This document shows, piece by piece, positions 1-45,662 of a stretch of 62,436 bases of DNA (positions are counted from its first letter, which is position 1; each line of letters starts with the position of its first letter). This stretch comes from a bacterium (lineage in GTDB: Bacteria > Patescibacteriota > Minisyncoccia > Phycocordibacterales > UBA5272), in contig JAHFMZ010000001.1 in NCBI GenBank assembly GCA_023267555.1, forward strand, positions 1 through 62,436. The letters run 5' to 3'. Position numbers and translations under genes: made by a program. The notes under the pieces were generated by a model. That model had not been told where the DNA came from. It ran no database searches and saw nothing but the letters and a program-made list of their open reading frames with translations.

Positions 1-1090
<1,090 letters not shown>

Positions 1091-1339: not shown

Positions 1340-1410
1340 GACCTAGTAGCTCAGAGGTGAGTGCCGGTGTTGAATCACAGGAGGTACTGGTTCGAGTCCA
1401 GTCGAGGTCG
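1340..1410 (+). tRNA. tRNA-shaped element directly upstream of 5S, with a 6-nt (or 8-nt) anticodon loop (isotype not assignable)
   Basis: Acceptor GACCTAG pairs with CGAGGTC with one A-G mismatch. It has a UA-GCTC D arm and a T arm ACTGG-TTCGAGT-CCAGT. The anticodon arm pairs CCGGTG/CACAGG around the loop TTGAAT. Flanks TTTTAGG and CCTAAAA extend the acceptor helix. Confidence 0.5.
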
Positions 1411-1431
1411 CCTAAAATTATTTTGAGTTTT

Positions 1432-7619: not shown

Positions 7620-8249
7620 ATGATGCAGATAACAACTAGCGCTCGCGCTCCAAAAGAAATCAAAAGAGAAGGCTTTATTCCTGCTGTTTATTATGGCGCA
7701 CACCAAGCTTCTACTCCAATTTTTATTGATGCAATTGAATTTAAAAAAGTGAATGCTGCGGTCGGAGAATCAGGTTCTATTGTCCTTGTTACAGAGCACG
7801 GAAATGAAAACGCTATGATTCAAGATGTACAAGTTGACCCAGTAAAAGGTTTTCCAATACACGTAGATTTTTATACTCTTGAAAAGGGTCAAAAAGTTCA
7901 CGTTAAGACTCCGATTACTATTGTTGGGGAATCCCAAGCTGTGAAAGATGGCGGTGTTCTAGTAAAAGTATTGCACGAACTTTCTGTTGAAGGTGATCCA
8001 GCAAAACTTCCTCACGAGTTTACAGTTGATATTTCATCACTTGTTACAAAAGATGACGTTATTCACGTGCGCGATATCAAACTTCCAGCTGGTGTAGAAC
8101 TTTATCACGTAACTTTAGATGATGTTGTTGTTTCTATCACTGAAGCCAAGGAAGAAGTGGAAGAAGTTCCAGTTGCTACTGATTTGAGTGCAATTGAGGT
8201 AGAAGAGAAGGGAAAGAAGGAAGAAGAAGCCGAAGTCCCAGCTGAATAA
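7620..8249 (+). CDS. rplY: 50S ribosomal protein L25/Ctc
   Basis: REGFIPAVYYG..VQVDPVKGFPIHVDFY, with an acidic C-terminal tail; typical Ctc-form L25. Confidence 0.85.
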   Translation: MMQITTSARAPKEIKREGFIPAVYYGAHQASTPIFIDAIEFKKVNAAVGESGSIVLVTEHGNENAMIQDVQVDPVKGFPIHVDFYTLEKGQKVHVKTPITIVGESQAVKDGGVLVKVLHELSVEGDPAKLPHEFTVDISSLVTKDDVIHVRDIKLPAGVELYHVTLDDVVVSITEAKEEVEEVPVATDLSAIEVEEKGKKEEEAEVPAE

Positions 8250-8549: not shown

Positions 8550-9164
8550 ATGGAAATACAAAATACTAATAGTAGTGAAAGTGGGCTTTGTTCTAGTTCT
8601 AATAAACTTATATCCTACATATTTTCTGCTTTTGTCGTCGGGGCTGTTGTTGGAGTGTTGGTAGATCCGTATTTGCCAGCTTCTTTGAGTGGTTCTAACA
8701 AAAGTTATCAAGCTGGTTTTGATAATGCCAAAAGTCTTGTAGAAAACAGCAGTCTCGGGGCTGCGTTCAAAACTCCCAATGAAATAAAACAGTTGTCTGG
8801 CTCTGTTACCGCTATTAATGGAAGTCAGCTCACTCTTAAAGTCAAATCAACAAATCCATTTGACGATCCATCTCTTGCTAACCGTACAGTTCTTTTGAAT
8901 ACTTCCACAAAAGTAGTTAGTCTTACAGCAAAACCTTCTGCAACATATCAAGCCGAAGTAGATAGTTTTATTAAAGCACAATCAAATACGGCAACTACTA
9001 GTGCCACAAAATCTCTCCCTTCTGCTTTCGTTTCATCTCCTGTAAATATTACAAATATTGCCATTGGAGATTCTATTAATGTATTGACTTCACAAAATAT
9101 AAAGACTTTGAAGGAATTTACTGCGACCGAAGTTCAAATTCTACCAAATAATATCGCTAAATAA
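8550..9164 (+). CDS. hypothetical membrane-anchored/secreted protein
   Basis: 204-aa ORF with an N-terminal hydrophobic helix (ISYIFSAFVVGAVVGVLV). No family recognised. Confidence 0.6.
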   Translation: MEIQNTNSSESGLCSSSNKLISYIFSAFVVGAVVGVLVDPYLPASLSGSNKSYQAGFDNAKSLVENSSLGAAFKTPNEIKQLSGSVTAINGSQLTLKVKSTNPFDDPSLANRTVLLNTSTKVVSLTAKPSATYQAEVDSFIKAQSNTATTSATKSLPSAFVSSPVNITNIAIGDSINVLTSQNIKTLKEFTATEVQILPNNIAK

Positions 9165-9176
9165 TTTTTTATTATA

Positions 9177-10022
9177 ATGTCTCTCAAAAAATTGTCACAA
9201 TTAAATATAATAAAATCAGGAGTATTGTTTGTGCTTCTCATTTCATCATTCTTTTTAGGGAATACAAAAGTAGAAGCAGGTGCTGTGTCGTGGGGAGTTG
9301 TCAATGAAGTTTGCTTTGGTTATGATACTACCGCAAGAACCGGAGGGTGGGTTTATACTGATTGGGGAGATCAGTATGTTACTTACCCGGAACCTTTATT
9401 CTCAACTAGTTTTGGTGATGCGACTTTAACACAGCTCTCAGCTTATTTCCAAGAATATCCTATAATCAAACCGGGAACACTTTATTATTATGAAATAATG
9501 ACTAGCGATGGACCTGTTACTTCATACTTTCCTAATTCTGCTTGTAAAGGTGTCGAAAGTACACATTATTTTGCTGCAAATACCAGTAAGCAGATAGACG
9601 AATATGCTCCGGGCGAAACAATAACTGCTTCTCTCGGTGCAAACTCTTCTGGTGGATACACACAAGGTGGATGGAGTGGTTTTACAACTAGTCTTCTATG
9701 GAATCCTATTACTGGACCTATTAGTTGTTTCCTTTTTGGTTGTGATTCTCCACCATATGTTAGAGTGCTTGCTAGTGTGCAAGGACAGTATATTGCTGAT
9801 TGTCACGGTGATGGTACAGCTGGATGTTCGGGTACAATAAATACTCCCAGTGTTCCACTTGCCCCAGGGAGTTACAATCTTCATCTTGAAGGATGCTATA
9901 TAAACTGTTCACCTGTCGGCACTGCAGATATTCCTTTTGTTGTAACTACTCCTGCTGTACCTACTGTTCAATTAAATTTCAGTTTTTTGGATAAAATAAA
10001 ATCTTCTCTAGGAATAATATAG
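9177..10022 (+). CDS. hypothetical secreted protein
   Basis: 281-aa ORF with a signal-like N-terminus (GVLFVLLISSFFLGNTKVEA), several Cys and a Gly/Thr-rich region. Confidence 0.6.
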   Translation: MSLKKLSQLNIIKSGVLFVLLISSFFLGNTKVEAGAVSWGVVNEVCFGYDTTARTGGWVYTDWGDQYVTYPEPLFSTSFGDATLTQLSAYFQEYPIIKPGTLYYYEIMTSDGPVTSYFPNSACKGVESTHYFAANTSKQIDEYAPGETITASLGANSSGGYTQGGWSGFTTSLLWNPITGPISCFLFGCDSPPYVRVLASVQGQYIADCHGDGTAGCSGTINTPSVPLAPGSYNLHLEGCYINCSPVGTADIPFVVTTPAVPTVQLNFSFLDKIKSSLGII

Positions 10023-10039
10023 GGTTGGAAATAATTACT

Positions 10040-10068
10040 AATGAGCGACCACGAAGTGGTCGCTCATT
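10040..10068 (+). terminator. terminator hairpin with core GAGCGACCAC-GAA-GTGGTCGCTC (copy 2)
   Basis: AATGAGCGACCAC-GAA-GTGGTCGCTCATT, 18 nt after the stop at 10022. Confidence 0.75.
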
Positions 10069-10170
10069 GTAATTGTATTTACTCTCGACTCTCTCCTCTA
10101 AACTCTTAACTATTATTTGTCCACACCTGTAATATATACGATAGAATGAACCTAGCGTATACTAAAATCA

Positions 10171-10917
10171 ATGGAAAAAAATACAAAAATTACATTATTT
10201 GTACTGGTTCTTATTATTGTTGGTATTTATATATACACTCTCCCTAGATTTTCAGAGGAAACCTCAAAAGTTAATAGAATATTCAAGAAGCAAACTACTC
10301 CGGCGCTTGTTTTATTGCAAGAAAAGGTTACAGGTGTTTATCCAGATAAACTAAAAATAACTTTCGTTAAGGATTCTGTAGAGAAAACAGTAATTATCAA
10401 TCCAAATACAAAAATTGAAAAGATTATTTCACAAAAAAATGCGAAAGGAGAAGTAGAAAAACAGGCTATTGTAGAAGTAAATATTAGTGATATAAAAAAG
10501 GGAAGTCTAGTAAATATTAATTATCAAACAGAAGTTTCCAATCAATTAAATGGTGTTAATAGTATTTCTTTTGTCGTAAATGGTAGTGTTGATAAACTGC
10601 AAATATCTAAACCAGACACCAATGTGTATATGAAGGGTGAAATTATTTCTGTTGATACCAGTAGTACCACTCAAAAGAGTATTAAATATAAAACTTACAG
10701 TTTAAATTCTACTGGAGCAACTGCAAATATGCTTGTTCCTGATGGAATTGCGATATACAAAGTATCTGATCAATCACGATTATCCATACTTCACGCACGC
10801 GTATCAATTACACTTGCTGATATAAAATCCAAACAAGTTGCTCTTTTTGTACTAGATACAAAAGCTCTTCAAAAAGGAAAAATTATTCCACAAGAGATTA
10901 TTATCTTAGATAAATAA
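10171..10917 (+). CDS. hypothetical membrane-anchored protein
   Basis: 248-aa ORF with an N-terminal TM helix (ITLFVLVLIIVGIYIYTL). Confidence 0.6.
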   Translation: MEKNTKITLFVLVLIIVGIYIYTLPRFSEETSKVNRIFKKQTTPALVLLQEKVTGVYPDKLKITFVKDSVEKTVIINPNTKIEKIISQKNAKGEVEKQAIVEVNISDIKKGSLVNINYQTEVSNQLNGVNSISFVVNGSVDKLQISKPDTNVYMKGEIISVDTSSTTQKSIKYKTYSLNSTGATANMLVPDGIAIYKVSDQSRLSILHARVSITLADIKSKQVALFVLDTKALQKGKIIPQEIIILDK

Positions 10918-10926
10918 AAAAAATAT

Positions 10927-12552
10927 ATGAAATTCTCAACACAAAAAATAAGCACATCCCTCATAAAGATTCTCTTTGTTTGTATTTTGTTGTTGGGTTT
11001 TTCTAATACCGCAGGGGCTCTTGATTGTTTGGCTTCTGGTACTCATACTTGGGGAAAATGTTCCGTACTTCTCGAATCCATACCTAGTTACTCAGGAGGT
11101 TTAAATGTTGGTCAAGCTATTACTTTAACAAATACAGCTTCTGGTTATTCTGGTTCTGAGACTTGGAGTTGTATAGCTGGTCCTGCGTGGAGTGGCCCAA
11201 CTAATTCTTCTTGTGTCGCTGTATGTCCAGCAGATTCTCCATATTCAGAGACTCGTTCTGGAGCTATCGCTCAATATTGTGCTGATTCGGGAGTGGTTTG
11301 TGGTACTGATTATCACTATGTTTCAAGTATATCTTGTCACGCAGCACCAGGTTGGGCTGCTTATGGAAATTCTTGTACAGCACCATCTTGTGGTGGTTGC
11401 GGTTGTGTCGCAGATCCTATCTCTGCATCTATCAATGCTGCTACTCCTGTATTATATGGTACGGCCTCTAATCTCGTATTACAATCATCGGGGGCAACTA
11501 GTTGTAATTTGTCTGGCATAGATCCAAATATATCTACGAATGTACGAGTAGATAGATCTACTGCCATTTTATATTCTAATCAGACATATGCCTTTGGTTG
11601 CAGTAACGCAAATAATAACACCAGCAGTGGATGGCAGTACAAGGAAGTGGTTGTGTGTGCCCAAGGACAAACAATAAGTGGCGGAAATTGTATCTCAGCG
11701 CCTGCTCCAACAACTACAGGTCTAGAAATACATCACACTCCGAATCCAGGTACAATTTATCCAACAACAAATTTTGTTATTTCTTGGAGTGGTGGAAGTA
11801 ATAGTCCAACATACTACAATGCATCTCTCTATAATACATCTCTTGGAAGTCTATATTATCCAAATCTTCTTATTGGAGATGGTACAACTTCTGGAAACAG
11901 GACAGCTACTACATTTCCTGGTGCTCCTAGTGGAGGACTCAGCGGAAGCTATCTCTTGAAGATTCAAGCCTGTAACTCCAGCGGTTGTAGTGATTGGGTT
12001 AATGGAACAACTCTTACAATCACTCCACCAATAGTTGCTCCAACAACTGCGTCGATAACCGTCACTCCTACCACCGTTTCTTCAAATCAAATATTCAGTG
12101 CTTCTTGGAGTGGAAACAATACACCAACATCATATAACGCGAAGATTCATAATACGAGTACTGGTGCTGATCTTACTTATACTGGGTTAACTACCACATC
12201 CTCAGGGGATTTAACTGCCGCAACGATTCCACTTGCCGTTGGAAGTTATATATTTCAGATTCAACCCTGCAACTCCGCTGGCTGTACTCCCGGATGGTTT
12301 GATTCAAACACTTTGTCAGTTGTTTTATCAACAGTGGTTATCGGTACATTTAATGCAAACAGCACGCCCGATAATTTAAATCTTCCATATGGAGGTGGTT
12401 CTGTCACACTTTCTTGGACAACAACAAATGCTACCAGCTGTACTATTACTGGTGGTGGACGAAATGACACATTCACCGGTGCTTCGGCATTGAATGGAAG
12501 CGAAACATTTAATGTTACAACATCTGCGACATATAATATTACCTGCCAGTAA
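10927..12552 (+). CDS. secreted Cys-rich protein with tandem ~100-aa repeat domains
   Basis: Signal-like N-terminus. Two clearly related internal repeats: ..ISWSGGSNSPTYYNASLYNTS..GSYLLKIQACNSSGCSDW.. and ..ASWSGNNTPTSYNAKIHNTS..GSYIFQIQPCNSAGCTPGW.. Confidence 0.65.
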   Translation: MKFSTQKISTSLIKILFVCILLLGFSNTAGALDCLASGTHTWGKCSVLLESIPSYSGGLNVGQAITLTNTASGYSGSETWSCIAGPAWSGPTNSSCVAVCPADSPYSETRSGAIAQYCADSGVVCGTDYHYVSSISCHAAPGWAAYGNSCTAPSCGGCGCVADPISASINAATPVLYGTASNLVLQSSGATSCNLSGIDPNISTNVRVDRSTAILYSNQTYAFGCSNANNNTSSGWQYKEVVVCAQGQTISGGNCISAPAPTTTGLEIHHTPNPGTIYPTTNFVISWSGGSNSPTYYNASLYNTSLGSLYYPNLLIGDGTTSGNRTATTFPGAPSGGLSGSYLLKIQACNSSGCSDWVNGTTLTITPPIVAPTTASITVTPTTVSSNQIFSASWSGNNTPTSYNAKIHNTSTGADLTYTGLTTTSSGDLTAATIPLAVGSYIFQIQPCNSAGCTPGWFDSNTLSVVLSTVVIGTFNANSTPDNLNLPYGGGSVTLSWTTTNATSCTITGGGRNDTFTGASALNGSETFNVTTSATYNITCQ

Positions 12553-18188: not shown

Positions 18189-18263
18189 GCTGACGTAGTT
18201 CTGTTGGGGTGACAAAATAATGAAAAAATGATAGGATATTGTATATTGTTTCAGTGTTAATAT

Positions 18264-18282
18264 GCCGCTTTAGCTCAGTTGG
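18264..18282 (+). pseudogene. orphan 5' fragment of tRNA-Thr (part of a 26-nt direct repeat)
   Basis: GCCGCTTTAGCTCAGTTGG is identical to 18372-18390. With the upstream TTAATAT, the repeat is 18257-18282 and 18365-18390. No T arm or acceptor 3' strand follows. Confidence 0.7.
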
Positions 18283-18371
18283 CACGAGCGCAAGCGAGAT
18301 TGTCAAAAGCCAACGGTTTCAAAACCGTATAAAATTGACACGTTATTTTATTTAGTTGAAATATTTAATAT

Positions 18372-18447
18372 GCCGCTTTAGCTCAGTTGGTAGAGCAACG
18401 GTTTTGTAAACCGTAGGTCCTCAGTTCGAATCTGAGAAGCGGCTCCA
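18372..18447 (+). tRNA. tRNA-Thr (anticodon UGU), CCA encoded
   Basis: GCCGCTT-TA-GCTC-AGTTGGTA-GAGC-A-ACGGT-TTTGTAA-ACCGT-AGGTC-CTCAG-TTCGAAT-CTGAG-AAGCGGC-T-CCA. Confidence 0.9.
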
Positions 18448-18474
18448 TAATAAGCGGAGCTTATTATTAAATGT

Positions 18475-18588
18475 GCCGCTTCAGGATGCCACCTGCGTGG
18501 CATCCGACAGATTCGAATAGGGGTCGCGAAGTCTTTTGTTTTGAACAAAGTGAAAAACTGACTTCGTGACCGAATCTGAGAAGCGGCT
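18475..18588 (+). ncRNA. tRNA-trailing tRNA-mimic module (Thr copy)
   Basis: GCCGCTT+CAG, H1 GATGCCAC-CTGC-GTGGCATC, core AGATTCGAATAGGGGTCG, H2 GGTCGCGAAGTC../..GACTTCGTGACC, then CGAATCTGAGAAGCGGCT, identical to the last 18 nt of tRNA-Thr. Confidence 0.6.
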
Positions 18589-33074: not shown

Positions 33075-33161
33075 GGAGACGTCGCATAGCGGCCTAGTGC
33101 ACTACCTTGGAAAGGTAGCAACGGGGTAACTCGTTCGAGAGTTCGAATCTCTCCGTCTCCG
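33075..33161 (+). tRNA. tRNA-Ser (anticodon GGA), class II, no encoded CCA
   Basis: Acceptor GGAGACG/CGTCTCC, G73, anticodon arm CTACC-TTGGAAA-GGTAG, long variable arm, T arm GAGAG-TTCGAAT-CTCTC. Confidence 0.88.
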
Positions 33162-33189
33162 CAAAATAATGAGCTTGTGAATATATTTT

Positions 33190-33297
33190 GCGAGACGGAG
33201 AAAGCCAACTGCTTGGCTTTCGTAGAGATTCGAATACGGGTCGGAAAATCATCTGCGACGAAGGAGCTGATTTTGTGACCGAATCTCTCCGTCTCCG
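33190..33297 (+). ncRNA. tRNA-trailing tRNA-mimic module (Ser-GGA copy)
   Basis: GAGACGGAG, H1 AAAGCCAA-CTGC-TTGGCTTT, core AGATTCGAATACGGGTCG, H2 GGTCGGAAAATCA../..TGATTTTGTGACC, then CGAATCTCTCCGTCTCCGCAA, identical to the last 21 nt of the tRNA region. Confidence 0.6.
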
Positions 33298-33337
33298 CAA
33301 TGTTTTTAGTATTAGAAGGATTGGATGATATAATAGT

Positions 33338-40368: not shown

Positions 40369-40378
40369 CATCTTTTTT

Positions 40379-40730
40379 GTTCTACCTATAAGCCGAATTC
40401 TGTCTTTGTGCTTACGCACAATGTGTAATCATGTATCTGGGATGATTGTTACCAATCACCTCTAGCGACACTCCCGTATTACTACGGGCACGATCTTGCA
40501 CACACGTAAGGATTTAGCCGTTTCAATTATGTGTTACCACATACATCATCCGTATAAAATTTCTTTTGTACGGAACCTCCAGCTTTCGCTTCGGGCGTCT
40601 CTGCTCGCACCTCTATGATTGCTCACGATGGGAATTACCCACTACGCTTGTTAATCAAATAACTGTGTGTTCGGACTTTCCTCTCTCAATATTAGTATTT
40701 CAAATATGAAGAGCGATTACCTAGTAGAAC
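40379..40730 (-). ncRNA. rnpB: RNase P RNA (bacterial type)
   Basis: The minus strand carries GAGAGGAAAGTCCGAAC (CR-I/P4) and ACAGAATTCGGCTTAT (CR-V/P4). P1 pairs GTTCTAC.. at the 5' end with ..GGTAGAAC at the 3' end. Confidence 0.85.
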
Positions 40731-40736
40731 AAAAAA

Positions 40737-44934: not shown

Positions 44935-45149
44935 AATCACTTCATCTGCAAGAATCGGTCACAAAAGCTATTTTAATATTCTGGTCACGAGTTACTAATT
45001 GTGCTAACCACACTACGTGTGGGTTGCTCATAAGTACTCTCGACCCCGCCTCGTGGTTTTGTAAAAGTCAGGAATACAACTTTTACAAAACATCACTGCG
45101 GCCCACAAAACTAAAAATCTTTAGCAGAAAAGATTTTCTTAACGTTTTG
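44935..45149 (-). ncRNA. divergent, longer relative of the tRNA-trailing module (downstream of tRNA-Arg)
   Basis: The minus strand has a hairpin AAAATCTTT-TCTGCT-AAAGATTTT, GGCGGGGTCG, a long arm GGTCGAGAGTACT../..AGTAACTCGTGACC, and GTGACC-GATT-CTTGC, which matches the tRNA-Arg T loop and stem. No acceptor-strand copy is present. Confidence 0.35.
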
Positions 45150-45289: not shown

Positions 45290-45613
45290 ATGTCGTCAGA
45301 TTTAAATAATCAGGAAAAATTAGAAGCAATCTATCAGATGACATTAGAAAATAATGCTGTGTTACGTACAATACGTAGACAACAATATTTTTCTACTGCT
45401 TTAAGAGTTCTCTACTGGTTAATAGTATTAGGAGTACTGGGAAGCGTTTATTACTTTGCAAGACCACTTGTTACAGGACTCTCTGAAAATTCTAACAGAA
45501 TAGAGGAAACTCTTACTCAATTCAATCAATTACGTGGACAATTACCAGAAATAAAGATGCTTAATCAAGTCATCAATGGTATTACGCCCGCAACAGCGAC
45601 CCCAGCACAGTAA
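45290..45613 (+). CDS. hypothetical protein with one TM helix
   Basis: 107-aa ORF. ALRVLYWLIVLGVLGSVYYF is hydrophobic. Confidence 0.5.
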   Translation: MSSDLNNQEKLEAIYQMTLENNAVLRTIRRQQYFSTALRVLYWLIVLGVLGSVYYFARPLVTGLSENSNRIEETLTQFNQLRGQLPEIKMLNQVINGITPATATPAQ

Positions 45614-45662
45614 AATTAAAAACCACAACAATTGTTGTGGTTTTTAATTTTACTGTGCTGGG
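45601..45662. terminator. perfect 31-bp palindrome (bidirectional terminator candidate) spanning a CDS stop and the tRNA-Phe 3' end
   Basis: CCCAGCACAGTAAAATTAAAAACCACAACAA|TTGTTGTGGTTTTTAATTTTACTGTGCTGGG has no mismatch and no loop. Confidence 0.7.

What the first reader, a model, noticed from the sequence alone, without database searches (positions are those of the whole stretch)
18448..18588. Thr copy: both helices covary relative to the Ser copies while the core and loop stay fixed
The module after tRNA-Thr keeps the CUGC loop, the core AGATTCGAATA(G)GGGTCG and TGACC-GAAT.
H1 is GATGCCAC/GTGGCATC, where the Ser copies have AAAGCCAA/TTGGCTTT.
The distal part of H2 is CGAAGTC/GACTTCG, where the Ser copies have AAAATCA/TGATTTT. 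Every pair is replaced but pairing is preserved.
The ends are Thr-specific: GCCGCTT at the 5' end, and the 3' end is identical to the last 18 nt of tRNA-Thr.
Sequence-divergent but structure-preserving helices are the classical signature of a functional RNA. They are not what decaying DNA looks like.
Basis: seen in the sequence. Interest (0 to 1): 0.8.

Follow-up and report, generated by a model that had tools for sequence, protein, structure and literature searches.

The report
tRNA-linked structured insertion element family
The hairpin-rich stretch after tRNA-Thr is one copy of a widespread, undescribed family of small structured elements that sit behind tRNA genes of ultra-small (Patescibacteria/CPR) bacteria, each carrying an antisense and a sense copy of its own tRNA's 3' end, and that come and go like mobile DNA.

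Summary
The window holds four strong copies (after tRNA-Thr and three tRNA-Ser), one divergent copy (after tRNA-Arg-CCU) and one partial copy (after tRNA-Phe).

I found 39 copies in Paceibacterota, Nomurabacteria and Saccharibacteria contigs, behind tRNAs of at least 12 amino-acid identities. On 32 copies the fold is 95% paired. All 9 H1 pairs show double compensatory changes. No shuffle or slid register comes close.

ATTCG and GAAT, and both ends, are copied from the neighbouring tRNA. The 5' half is a true antisense of the tRNA's last ~20 nt, split by H1. The 3' end is a sense copy starting in the T-loop.

The truly constant parts are H1, UAGGGGUCG, H2 and GUGACC.

Copies are gained, lost or swapped at one orthologous locus among close relatives. 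They occur in tandem, decay, and resemble each other within a genome more than their tRNAs do.

No match in Rfam 15, IMG/VR, phage or plasmid collections. No recombinase or RT gene among the 40 window ORFs scanned.

Best reading (about 0.4): a non-autonomous structured insertion element that recognises tRNA 3' ends by base pairing. A host tRNA-like or processing RNA is not excluded.

The parts
18372..18447 (+). tRNA-Thr(UGU) with encoded CCA. Its last ~20 nt (T-loop C56 to U73) are the segment X that the element copies in both senses.
   Evidence: ARAGORN; Rfam tRNA 74.4 bits.
18447..18467 (+). H0: hairpin ATAATAAGC-gga-GCTTATTAT directly abutting the tRNA 3' end. In other copies it is a long, often terminator-like hairpin whose stem runs on into X / X'acc.
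   Evidence: Sequence; folds of 38 copies; H0 families shared between loci.
18475..18481 (+). X'acc: GCCGCTT, antisense of the acceptor 3' strand AAGCGGC of tRNA-Thr.
   Evidence: Generality. It is a true antisense, not a copy of the tRNA 5' strand: the Val tRNAs have G5.U68 but X'acc has A.
18484..18505 (+). H1: 9-bp hairpin with CUGC loop, inserted about where the acceptor and T-stem parts of the antisense meet.
   Evidence: 99.3-99.5% paired, 9/9 pairs with changes on both sides.
18508..18517 (+). X'T: CAGATTCGAA, the reverse complement of TTCGAATCTG (T-loop plus T-stem 3' strand of tRNA-Thr). It is the 5' strand of helix P3.
   Evidence: It follows the tRNA's T-loop sequence in Gly and Leu copies. 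P3 is 95.8% paired.
18516..18521 (+). Conserved asymmetric bulge AAUAGG(G), with nothing opposite. It reads AAUACGG in the Ser copies.
   Evidence: Invariant columns in A2/A3; left unpaired in MFE folds of all copies.
18522..18571 (+). H2: long hairpin on the invariant base GGUCG/UGACC, which includes an invariant G.U. The distal part varies (subtype D here, subtype C in the Ser copies).
   Evidence: 92.5-92.9% paired, G.U 32/32; compensatory GGUUCG/GUGAAC in a Leu copy.
18571..18588 (+). Right-hand X: CGAATCTGAGAAGCGGCT, an 18-nt direct repeat of tRNA-Thr positions 56-73. It pairs with X'T (P3) and X'acc (P1).
33163..33300 (+). Full copy after tRNA-Ser(GGA) (tRNA at 33075-33162): H0, X'acc GCGAGACGG, H1, X'T AGAGATTCG, AAUACGG, H2 subtype C, X of 21 nt.
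   Evidence: CM 90.2 bits.
57427..57562 (+). Full copy after tRNA-Ser(GCU) (tRNA at 57338-57426). It is 99% identical to the Ser(GGA) copy. Its X'T still matches the GGA T-stem (one mismatch to its own tRNA), while both X copies are the local sequence.
56978..57126 (-). Full copy after tRNA-Ser(ACU) (tRNA at 57127-57214, minus strand). H0 is a terminator-like hairpin. H1 is GAAAGTGAA/TTCACTTTC.
44985..45148 (-). Divergent copy after tRNA-Arg(CCU). It has H0, a degenerate X'acc, no canonical H1, an extra hairpin domain, then GGGGUCG...CUCGUGACC.
   Evidence: weak CM hit of 11.6 bits. It resembles the type-2 copies in L129, L133 and L136.
45601..45653 (-). Partial element after tRNA-Phe: a 22-bp H0 followed by GTGCTGGG, antisense to the acceptor 3' strand CCCAGCAC. 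There is no H1 or core.
   Evidence: Same situation at L129 tRNA-Gly(UCC).

Best explanation
The module is one copy of a family of small (about 95-250 nt), protein-less, structured insertion elements specific to the 3' side of tRNA genes in Patescibacteria.

Common plan: tRNA 3' segment X, then hairpin H0, then X'acc (antisense of the acceptor 3' strand), then H1, then X'T (antisense of T-stem 3' strand plus T-loop), then UAGGGG bulge, then optional extra hairpins, then H2 on a GGUCG/UGACC base, then a sense copy of X starting at T-loop C56.

That sense copy has two forms:
- Class S: only the 10 nt needed for helix P3.
- Class L: runs to the tRNA's 3' end. All four strong window copies are class L.

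The single-stranded form is either read-through RNA from the tRNA promoter or single-stranded DNA. It folds so that X' pairs with X. This reproduces the acceptor/T-arm helix of the target tRNA, with H1 as a side arm and H2 as a cap.

Inferred mechanism: base pairing between X' and the tRNA 3' segment is what ties the element to its site and lets it spread to tRNAs with similar 3' ends. Insertion leaves the tRNA intact, because the segment from the T-loop onward ends up duplicated. Loss can occur by recombination between the two X copies. The enzyme is supplied in trans and is unknown.

Shown: anatomy, covariation, the tRNA-derived arms, distribution, turnover.

Inferred: mobility mechanism, nature of the intermediate, role of pairing in targeting.
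For: Family and fold:
- 39 CM hits, all on the same strand as a tRNA. Where upstream sequence is available and the copy is not second in a tandem, they lie just 3' of a tRNA or of a tRNA-derived 3' fragment; L094 has none.
- Strong covariation.

The arms are templated from the tRNA:
- T-loop variants are tracked.
- X'acc is the Watson-Crick antisense where the tRNA itself has G.U.

Insertion-like behaviour:
- At the tRNA-Thr / thioredoxin-like gene locus, relatives with 96% and 92% neighbour-protein identity carry a different (type-2) element. Those at 94% and 84% carry neither type. Those at 89% and 79% are empty.
- In syntenic Saccharibacteria loci, tRNA-Arg has an element in L129 but not in L099.
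- Tandem copies each have their own H0 and an X' matching the preceding X. Tandem H1-to-H2 units also occur.
- Truncated and decayed copies exist.
- Within-genome copies are 82-99% identical while their tRNAs are 64-73% identical. A Saccharibacteria copy is 84% identical to a Paceibacterota copy.
- The Ser(GCU) copy carries the Ser(GGA) guide with one mismatch, but local X repeats.

Layout: a direct repeat of the tRNA 3' part flanking the insert is the classical integration signature (PMC9897764).

No machinery in the window: 40 ORFs give housekeeping families or no Pfam match, none a recombinase, RT or Nop domain.
Against: - No enzyme, no circular or excised form and no transcript has been seen.
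- No filled/empty pair with near-identical flanks was found, so the insertion boundaries are inferred.
- How a copy acquires new X'/X arms for an unrelated tRNA is unexplained. Candidates are templating, gene conversion or quasipalindrome correction.
- Gene conversion plus deletion between repeats could mimic mobility.
- Deep conservation of the UAGGGGUCG/GUGACC core across phyla would also fit a host function.
- Class S copies have a sharp boundary at position 65 and need the real tRNA's 3' strand as partner. That hints at a cis role on the tRNA transcript.
Confidence: 0.4

Rival explanations
1. A host-beneficial tRNA-like small RNA. X'acc:X (P1) stacked on X'T:X (P3) imitates the acceptor/T-arm minihelix of the cognate tRNA. 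RNase P, RNase Z and CCA-adding enzymes would then excise and stabilise a roughly 115-nt RNA whose H1 and H2 domains carry the real, unknown function.
For: - Three-way junction with P1+P3 made of the tRNA's own acceptor and T-stem pairs.
- H1 sits where the D and anticodon arms sit in a tRNA.
- The core is conserved across Saccharibacteria and Paceibacterota.
- Strong covariation.
- An invariant G.U (32/32).
Against: - P1 in cis is present in only about half of the copies, with 58% of cells paired.
- No T-loop caps the 12-bp minihelix.
- In the Ser copies the pairing runs past the discriminator, with a bulge or mismatch at 2:71.
- The module's right-hand X is not followed by an encoded CCA.
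- A terminator-like hairpin usually precedes the module, and no promoter-like site was found for it.
- It is absent at the orthologous locus in relatives.
Confidence: 0.22
2. A cis-acting device on tRNA transcripts. The long X-H0-X'acc hairpin, plus X'T, sequesters the 3' third of the tRNA in read-through transcripts. It could act as an extended terminator, an RNase III processing stalk or a quality-control switch, with the right-hand X acting as competitor strand.
For: - X-H0-X'acc forms continuous helices of up to 31 bp, -50 to -58 kcal/mol.
- It exists without the rest of the module at tRNA-Phe and at L129 tRNA-Gly.
- The MFE fold of tRNA-Thr plus module pairs X' with the tRNA's own 3' part.
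- Class S copies can use only the tRNA's strand.
- 21 of 51 CPR tRNAs have the antisense 9-mer 20-47 nt downstream, against 0 of 8 in non-CPR loci.
Against: - It does not explain the conserved H1, bulge and H2 domains, the tandem units or the subtype swapping.
- Many tRNAs in the same genomes, and the same tRNA in close relatives, lack it.
- Sequestering the acceptor strand would damage rather than help tRNA maturation.
Confidence: 0.15
3. Scars of larger integrative elements (CIME-like: attL plus attR left after the cargo was deleted). The hairpins would be arm-type protein-binding sites of phages or islands that integrate in the T-loop region of tRNA genes.
For: One complete tRNA plus one partial 3' copy in direct repeat, with the repeat starting in the T-loop. 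This is the layout produced by tRNA-targeting integrases (PMC9897764; Williams 2002, from my own knowledge).
Against: - No copy with cargo between the halves was found among the held loci.
- No hit in IMG/VR, INPHARED phages or PLSDB plasmids.
- Helices covary in sequence, which protein-binding double-stranded sites do not.
- The antisense arms have no role in a double-stranded att site.
- The same scar would have to arise independently at more than 15 tRNA species.
Confidence: 0.08
4. Non-functional by-product: local duplications and palindromes near tRNA genes made by replication template switching, now decaying.
For: The direct-inverted-direct arrangement of X, X', X resembles template-switch products. 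Partial tRNA duplications occur in these loci.
Against: - H1, the UAGGGGUCG bulge and H2 are not tRNA-derived, yet they are conserved across phyla with compensatory changes.
- 0/500 shuffles reach the observed pairing.
Confidence: 0.02

Closest known systems
Integrative elements in tRNA genes, T-loop sublocation class (Williams 2002; reviewed in PMC9897764)
   Same: The insert lies 3' of an intact tRNA and is bounded by a direct repeat of the tRNA's 3' part that begins in the T-loop. Presence varies between relatives.
   Different: The insert is only about 100-250 nt and has no integrase or cargo. It carries an antisense copy of the target and covarying hairpins. The repeat length is bimodal (10 nt or about 18-23 nt).
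Folded single-stranded recombination sites: integron attC, CTX-phi attP(+)
   Same: Structure is conserved while sequence is not. Two paired boxes are interrupted by a strand-specific irregularity and closed by a variable terminal structure. The folded strand imitates the duplex target site.
   Different: No integron integrase or Xer link is shown. The target is a tRNA gene rather than attI or dif. The paired boxes are copied from the target itself. The single-stranded DNA form is hypothetical.
Target recognition by base pairing in mobile RNAs or guide RNAs (group II intron EBS/IBS, IS110 bridge RNA, retroviral primer-binding site for the tRNA 3' end, TIGR tigRNA, PMC12045711)
   Same: A conserved structured scaffold carries short variable segments complementary to the target. 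The guide is split in two by a hairpin. An 18-20-nt complement to a tRNA 3' end recalls a primer-binding site.
   Different: There is no adjacent RT, DEDD recombinase or Nop protein. There is no complement to CCA. Both guide pieces pair with the same strand, and a sense copy is also present. It is not arranged in arrays of short units and has no box C/D.
tRNA-like structures used as processing signals (mascRNA, viral TLS, tmRNA TLD) and circularly permuted tRNA genes
   Same: The acceptor-like and T-stem-like helices are made of tRNA sequence. In class S copies the acceptor 3' strand comes first and is linked by a hairpin to the 5' strand, as in a permuted tRNA.
   Different: No T-loop, D-arm or anticodon arm. 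The module's own 3' end has no encoded CCA. The helix extends past the discriminator. It is not detected by ARAGORN or the Rfam tRNA clan.
MITEs / REPINs (small non-autonomous repeats)
   Same: Short, non-coding, hairpin-forming, with several near-identical copies per genome, tandem copies and decaying copies.
   Different: No terminal inverted repeats of its own. It is strictly tied to tRNA 3' ends. It has target-derived internal segments. No cognate transposase is known.

Membership tests
tRNA (RF00005 / ARAGORN) | Cloverleaf with D-arm, anticodon arm and T-arm | tested here: not met
   ARAGORN and Rfam call only the upstream tRNAs. They give no hit on any module, even at E<=10.
tRNA-like structure / minihelix processed by RNase P and RNase Z | Acceptor stem stacked on a T-stem that is capped by a T-loop, with a free discriminator (and CCA) | tested here: not met
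   P1+P3 exist in class L copies, but P3 continues into AUUCG/CGAAU, a 7-nt bulge and H2. In several copies the pairing includes positions 73/74. Class S copies lack P1.
tRNA-like structure / minihelix processed by RNase P and RNase Z | Cleavage by RNase P or RNase Z; CCA addition | not testable with these tools
   Needs in vitro processing or RNA-end mapping.
Integrative element at a tRNA gene | Complete tRNA and partial 3' copy as direct repeats flanking the insert | tested here: met
   Repeats of 17-23 nt (class L) start at C56. All four window copies are class L.
Integrative element at a tRNA gene | Integrase (tyrosine or serine recombinase) gene within the element | tested here: not met
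   The insert is 100-250 nt. No split copies with cargo were found. No recombinase among 40 window ORFs.
Integron attC / CTX-type folded att site | Conserved imperfect hairpin architecture with variable sequence and a strand-specific irregularity | tested here: inconclusive
   The architecture is analogous: paired boxes, H1 on one strand only, variable terminal H2. However, there is no R-box consensus and no evidence for a single-stranded DNA form.
Integron attC / CTX-type folded att site | Associated IntI or Xer recombination | not tested
   No integrase was seen in the window. A genome-wide census is not possible with the data held.
Intrinsic terminator | G+C-rich hairpin followed by a U tract | tested here: inconclusive
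   H0 meets this in the Ser(ACU) copy and in many other loci but not in the Thr copy. It does not account for H1, the core or H2.
Self-cleaving ribozymes next to tRNAs (HDV-like theta, twister, hammerhead, hatchet, pistol) | Match to the family's covariance model or conserved catalytic core | tested here: not met
   No Rfam hit on the module. The fold is fully nested with no double pseudoknot. The junctions lack conserved core nucleotides.
Retron ncRNA | Terminal inverted repeats plus msr/msd hairpins encoded next to a retron RT | tested here: not met
   The end pairing and hairpins are superficially similar. But there is no RT gene near any of 4 window copies, and there are several copies per genome.
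IS110 bridge RNA / TIGR tigRNA | Guide RNA encoded beside its DEDD recombinase or Nop-domain Tas protein; TIGR has arrays of 36-nt units with box C/D | tested here: not met
   No such genes among the 40 window ORFs scanned. There are no arrays and no box C/D. Comparison made with PMC12045711.
MITE | Terminal inverted repeats and a short fixed target-site duplication | tested here: not met
   The ends are tRNA-derived (X', X), not element TIRs. The repeat is 10 or 17-23 nt.

The most novel reading that the evidence does not exclude
A protein-less mobile element whose site choice is programmed by nucleic-acid pairing. [quoted passage not shown] A trans-acting recombinase or polymerase uses this fold to insert behind, or into the T-loop of, the matching tRNA gene. 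The antisense arms are re-templated from the new tRNA. This would be a re-programmable, tRNA-homing small element unique to Patescibacteria.
Probability: 0.2. Interest if true: 0.92.

Novelty: categorically new. Interest (0 to 1): 0.8.

Why it matters
If this holds, many tRNA genes in some CPR genomes carry a hitherto unannotated structured element. It affects 6 of 9 tRNAs in this 62-kb window.

Its variable arms are exact antisense and sense copies of the tRNA's 3' end. That is a natural example of a conserved scaffold with target-derived, apparently re-templated guide segments and no adjacent protein gene.

- It would add a new class to the catalogue of structured non-coding elements; nothing in Rfam 15 matches.
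- It would explain puzzling partial tRNA duplications and giant palindromes at CPR tRNA loci.
- It would flag a source of tRNA-annotation artefacts.
- It poses a directly testable question: which enzyme reads a folded copy of a tRNA gene's 3' end?
- If the element instead acts on tRNA transcripts, it would be a lineage-specific layer of tRNA maturation control in organisms with minimal genomes.

Tried and rejected
- **Genome scan too loose.** The first genome-contig scan used a 15-mer.
- **No viral, phage or plasmid copies.** Two IMG/VR pattern scans gave none, or only chance hits with no CM match. blastn against INPHARED phages and PLSDB plasmids gave no match.
- **Rfam.** Searches at gathering and at E<=10 found nothing on any module type. 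Only miRNA-like hits appeared on the long hairpins.
- **Twister-P3.** A weak hit upstream of tRNA-Thr (21.9 bits against a gathering score of 39.9) was not reproduced in the relative L148. Rejected.
- **Degenerate tRNA with an insertion in the T-loop.** Rejected because the left T-loop piece is antisense in Gly and Leu copies, and X'acc differs from the tRNA 5' strand at G.U pairs.
- **H/ACA-like pocket.** Rejected because no unpaired target nucleotides are consistently left at the H1 junction.
- **HDV-like, hammerhead, retron, bridge RNA, TIGR.** All rejected; see the membership tests.
- **Split copies with cargo.** None found.
- **Synteny at the Ser(ACU)/Ser(GCU) locus.** Tried through the ABC ATPase. 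The relatives were too distant or had no DNA held.
- **Loop/bulge covariation.** No covariation between the H1 loop and the bulge was evident by eye.
- **Literature.** The six searches that ran (a seventh failed on term syntax) found no description of such an element.
Full report
**What is at the coordinates**

The window looks like a Patescibacteria (CPR) genome. Genes are short, rRNA, tRNA and RNase P RNA are present, and neighbour proteins are closest to Candidatus Paceibacterota MAGs.

tRNA-Thr(UGU) lies at 18372-18447. Behind it, on the same strand, lie:
- a small hairpin H0 (18447-18467);
- GCCGCTT (18475-18481);
- a 9-bp hairpin H1 with a CUGC loop (18484-18505);
- CAGATTCGAA (18508-18517);
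- an unpaired AAUAGG(G);
- a long hairpin H2 on the base GGUCG/UGACC (18522-18571);
- CGAATCTGAGAAGCGGCT (18571-18588).

The last 18 nt equal positions 56-73 of tRNA-Thr. The 18-mer core occurs four times against 0.01 expected.

**How many copies, and where**

A covariance model built from 22 copies finds exactly four strong copies in the window, at 86-90 bits. They follow tRNA-Thr, Ser(GGA), Ser(GCU) and Ser(ACU).

Reading the other tRNA flanks showed two more:
- a divergent copy after tRNA-Arg(CCU), with no canonical H1, an extra hairpin and a GGGGUCG...GUGACC core;
- a partial one after tRNA-Phe, with H0 plus an 8-nt antisense of the acceptor strand and nothing more.

tRNA-Gly and tRNA-Glu have nothing.

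Outside the window, pattern scans recovered copies in Nomurabacteria, Paceibacterota and Saccharibacteria MAGs and in metagenome contigs. The model then found 39 copies in 20 such loci. They follow tRNAs for Thr, Ser (four anticodons), Pro, Val (two), Ile, Arg (two), Cys, Leu (two), Gly (two), Glu and Lys, plus a large variant after His. They are always on the tRNA's strand. The element is therefore not specific to Ser or Thr.

Nothing matches in Rfam 15, IMG/VR, GenBank phages or PLSDB plasmids. The six literature searches that ran found no description.

**Is the fold real**

On the 24-sequence MAFFT alignment, the structure H1 + P3 + H2 (+P1) has 87.8% of cells paired. Column shuffles give 71% and slid registers 34-45%. 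H1 is 99.5% paired, and all nine of its pairs have changes on both sides.

On 32 copies aligned to the model, 95.4% of cells pair. The covariation score is 0.543 against 0.189, and 0 of 500 shuffles reach it. RNAalifold run without my structure returns the same three helices.

G.U/U.G cells outnumber A.C/C.A cells 45 to 6, but 37 of those 45 come from two conserved positions. The base pair G.U in GGUCG/UGACC is invariant (32/32). So the fold belongs to the tRNA-sense strand, but RNA and single-stranded DNA cannot be separated on this evidence.

The supposedly fixed ATTCG...GAAT follows the neighbour's T-loop:
- tRNA-Gly (TTCGATT) copies read GGAGAATCGAA...GACCGATTCTCC.
- tRNA-Leu (TTCGAGT) reads GGGACTCGAA...GAACGAGTCCC, with a compensatory GGUUCG/GUGAAC in the H2 base.
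- tRNA-Leu (TTCAAGT) reads GGACTTGAA...GATCAAGTCC.

So the 5' half is the reverse complement of the tRNA's last ~20 nt, from the T-loop through the acceptor strand and often into the trailer. H1 interrupts it about where the T-stem and acceptor parts meet. One copy (L136, Leu-GAG) lacks H1 and has a contiguous 20-nt antisense.

It is a real antisense, not a reuse of the tRNA's own 5' strand. Two tRNA-Val genes have G5.U68, but their elements carry A opposite U68.

The acceptor antisense usually continues H0 without a break. The tRNA 3' strand, H0 and X'acc then form one hairpin of up to 31 bp.

The truly element-specific, conserved parts are:
- the A before H1;
- H1, whose loop is mostly CUGC but is CUAA or UAAA in large variants;
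- UAGGGGUCG;
- H2, with at least four distal subtypes and optional extra hairpins;
- GUGACC.

**The right-hand repeat**

The sense copy always starts at T-loop C56/G57. Its exact length is bimodal.
- Class L runs to the tRNA's 3' end, plus 0 to 4 nt (17-23 nt). All four window copies are class L. In L137 it runs 42 nt, including the native trailer and a perfect terminator.
- Class S stops sharply after the T-stem (8-10 nt) and continues with unrelated sequence. Examples are Ile, Gly, Leu and Val.

In class S, X'acc can pair only with the real tRNA's 3' strand. This is why the cis helix P1 is only 58% paired overall.

Folding tRNA-Thr together with its element gives an MFE in which X' invades the tRNA's own 3' third, while the tRNA 5' strand pairs with the right-hand X. 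So two competing conformations exist.

**Behaviour over evolutionary time**

At the orthologous tRNA-Thr / thioredoxin-like gene locus, ordered by neighbour-protein identity:

| Relative | Identity | State behind tRNA-Thr |
|---|---|---|
| L142, L143 | 100% (identical strain) | same element |
| L147 | 96% | end of a different, type-2 element (...ACTTGTCGG\|CGAATCTGAGAAGTAGCA) |
| L144 | 92% | end of a type-2 element (...ACTTGTAGC\|CGAATCTG) |
| L148 | 94% | unrelated hairpin-rich spacer |
| L145 | 84% | unrelated hairpin-rich spacer |
| L149 | 89% | tRNA-CCA, a short spacer, then the ATG |
| L146 | 79% | tRNA-CCA, a short spacer, then the ATG |

Further observations:
- In syntenic Saccharibacteria loci, tRNA-Arg(UCG) carries an element in L129 but not in L099. 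tRNA-Pro carries different types.
- Tandem copies occur. Each has its own H0 and an antisense matching the preceding X. Tandem H1-to-H2 units without H0 also occur.
- Truncated pieces and a copy attached to a 5'-truncated pseudo-tRNA are present.
- Within a genome the elements are far more alike than their tRNAs. Ser GGA/GCU tRNAs are 73% identical while their elements are 99% identical. L137 Pro/Gly tRNAs are 64% identical while their elements are 82% identical.
- A Saccharibacteria Pro element is 84% identical to a Paceibacterota one.
- The Ser(GCU) element still carries the Ser(GGA) T-stem antisense, with one mismatch, although both of its X copies are the local sequence. That looks like a recent transfer between tRNAs with near-identical 3' ends.
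- H0 stems fall into families (AGAATACAAAAA..., AGAAAT..., TCGTACAAAA...) shared between different tRNAs and genomes. H0 therefore travels with the element.
- None of 40 window ORFs scanned against Pfam matches a recombinase, RT or Nop-domain family.

**Interpretation**

The anatomy is a complete tRNA plus a direct repeat of its 3' part starting in the T-loop. That is the classical footprint of integration at a tRNA gene (PMC9897764; Williams 2002, from my own knowledge).

The turnover, tandem arrays, decay and within-genome homogenisation all fit an insertion or mobile element better than a conserved host gene. Yet the insert is tiny and protein-less. It folds with strong covariation and contains an exact antisense of its target.

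I therefore favour, at about 0.4, a non-autonomous structured element whose single-stranded form recognises the tRNA 3' segment by pairing. The closest analogies are folded att sites (integron attC, CTX-phi), guide segments in group II introns and bridge RNAs, and the retroviral primer-binding site. None of these fits as a membership.

How new arms are acquired for an unrelated tRNA is unexplained. So are the enzyme and the nature of the intermediate. Templated synthesis, gene conversion from the flanking X, or quasipalindrome correction through H0 are possible.

**Rivals**

- A host tRNA-like RNA matured by RNase P/Z (0.22) fits the P1+P3 minihelix and the deep conservation. It does not fit the class S copies, the lack of a T-loop or of an encoded CCA after the module's X, the preceding terminators or the empty orthologous sites.
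- A cis-acting device on tRNA transcripts (0.15) fits the X-H0-X' hairpins, which also occur alone. It leaves H1, the bulge and H2 unexplained.
- Scars of larger integrated elements (0.08) and neutral template-switch debris (0.02) are contradicted by the covariation, the lack of any cargo-bearing copy and the recurrence at many tRNA species.

**Verdict**

The 'functional RNA' reading is partly supported: the fold is selected, but its function and molecule type are open.

The feature belongs to a widespread, previously uncatalogued family with a distinctive target-antisense / target-sense architecture. Every known family I could test against fails at least one defining feature, so I rate it categorically new, with interest 0.8. 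The caveat is that expression and mobility are inferred, not shown.

Noticed in passing
window 18264-18345 (+): Immediately after the only promoter-like site of the locus (18209-18237) lies a tRNA-Thr-like 5' fragment. It has an identical first 23 nt including the upstream 'atat', a 25-nt insertion in the D-loop, an altered anticodon loop, and is truncated after the anticodon arm. It precedes the functional tRNA-Thr. A 30-nt block, AGCCAACGGTTTCAAAACCGTATAAAATTG, is identical in relative L148, while the flanking helix covaries (TGTCAA/TTGACA against ACAAT/ATTGT). It is either a pseudo-tRNA or a second, 5'-side element.
   Followed up: partly
window 18306-18379 (+): Weak Rfam hit to the type-P3 twister ribozyme (21.9 bits, gathering score 39.9). 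It overlaps the fragment above and the start of tRNA-Thr. It was not reproduced in L148, so it is probably chance.
   Followed up: partly
window 57127-57214 (-); also L020, L115, L130, L135: A tRNA-Ser with anticodon ACU (anticodon loop UUACUAA) sits next to tRNA-Ser(GCU). The pair recurs in several Patescibacteria loci. A34 outside tRNA-Arg(ACG) is unusual in bacteria, and it appears redundant with the GCU isoacceptor.
   Followed up: no
window 1-1086 (+): The 3' end of 23S rRNA matches only model positions 2507-2925 (419 positions) over 1086 nt. This implies an insertion or intervening sequence of roughly 650 nt in the 23S gene, as is common in CPR.
   Followed up: no
window 1340-1412 (+): Between the 23S and 5S genes lies a tRNA-like gene for which ARAGORN cannot assign a normal anticodon ('ga'). 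Its Rfam tRNA score is only 38.8 bits.
   Followed up: no
window 8550-12552 (+): Four consecutive ORFs (204, 281, 248 and 541 aa) have no Pfam match at E<=1e-5.
   Followed up: no
L137 4919-5011(-), L020 ~397-425(-), L136 ~7985-8010(-): A recurrent junction variant has two extra bases, GACC-GAAT-AT-(T-stem 3' strand), between the T-loop part and the T-stem part of the right-hand repeat. It was seen at three different tRNAs (Pro, Ser, His).
   Followed up: no
L121 ~440-640 (+): A module is attached to a 5'-truncated pseudo-tRNA-Ser whose T-stem strands do not match each other (GAGAG ... CCCAT). A different, intact tRNA-Ser(GGA) lies 7 nt upstream. This suggests layered replacement events at tRNA loci.
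   Followed up: partly
L149 1753-2343 (+): In one relative, a 196-aa ORF with a weak HTH_58 match is inserted directly upstream of the orthologous tRNA-Thr.
   Followed up: no
window 40373-40732 (-): RNase P RNA (bacterial type A) scores 116.6 bits, just above the gathering score of 100. This is consistent with a reduced CPR-type RNase P RNA.
   Followed up: no
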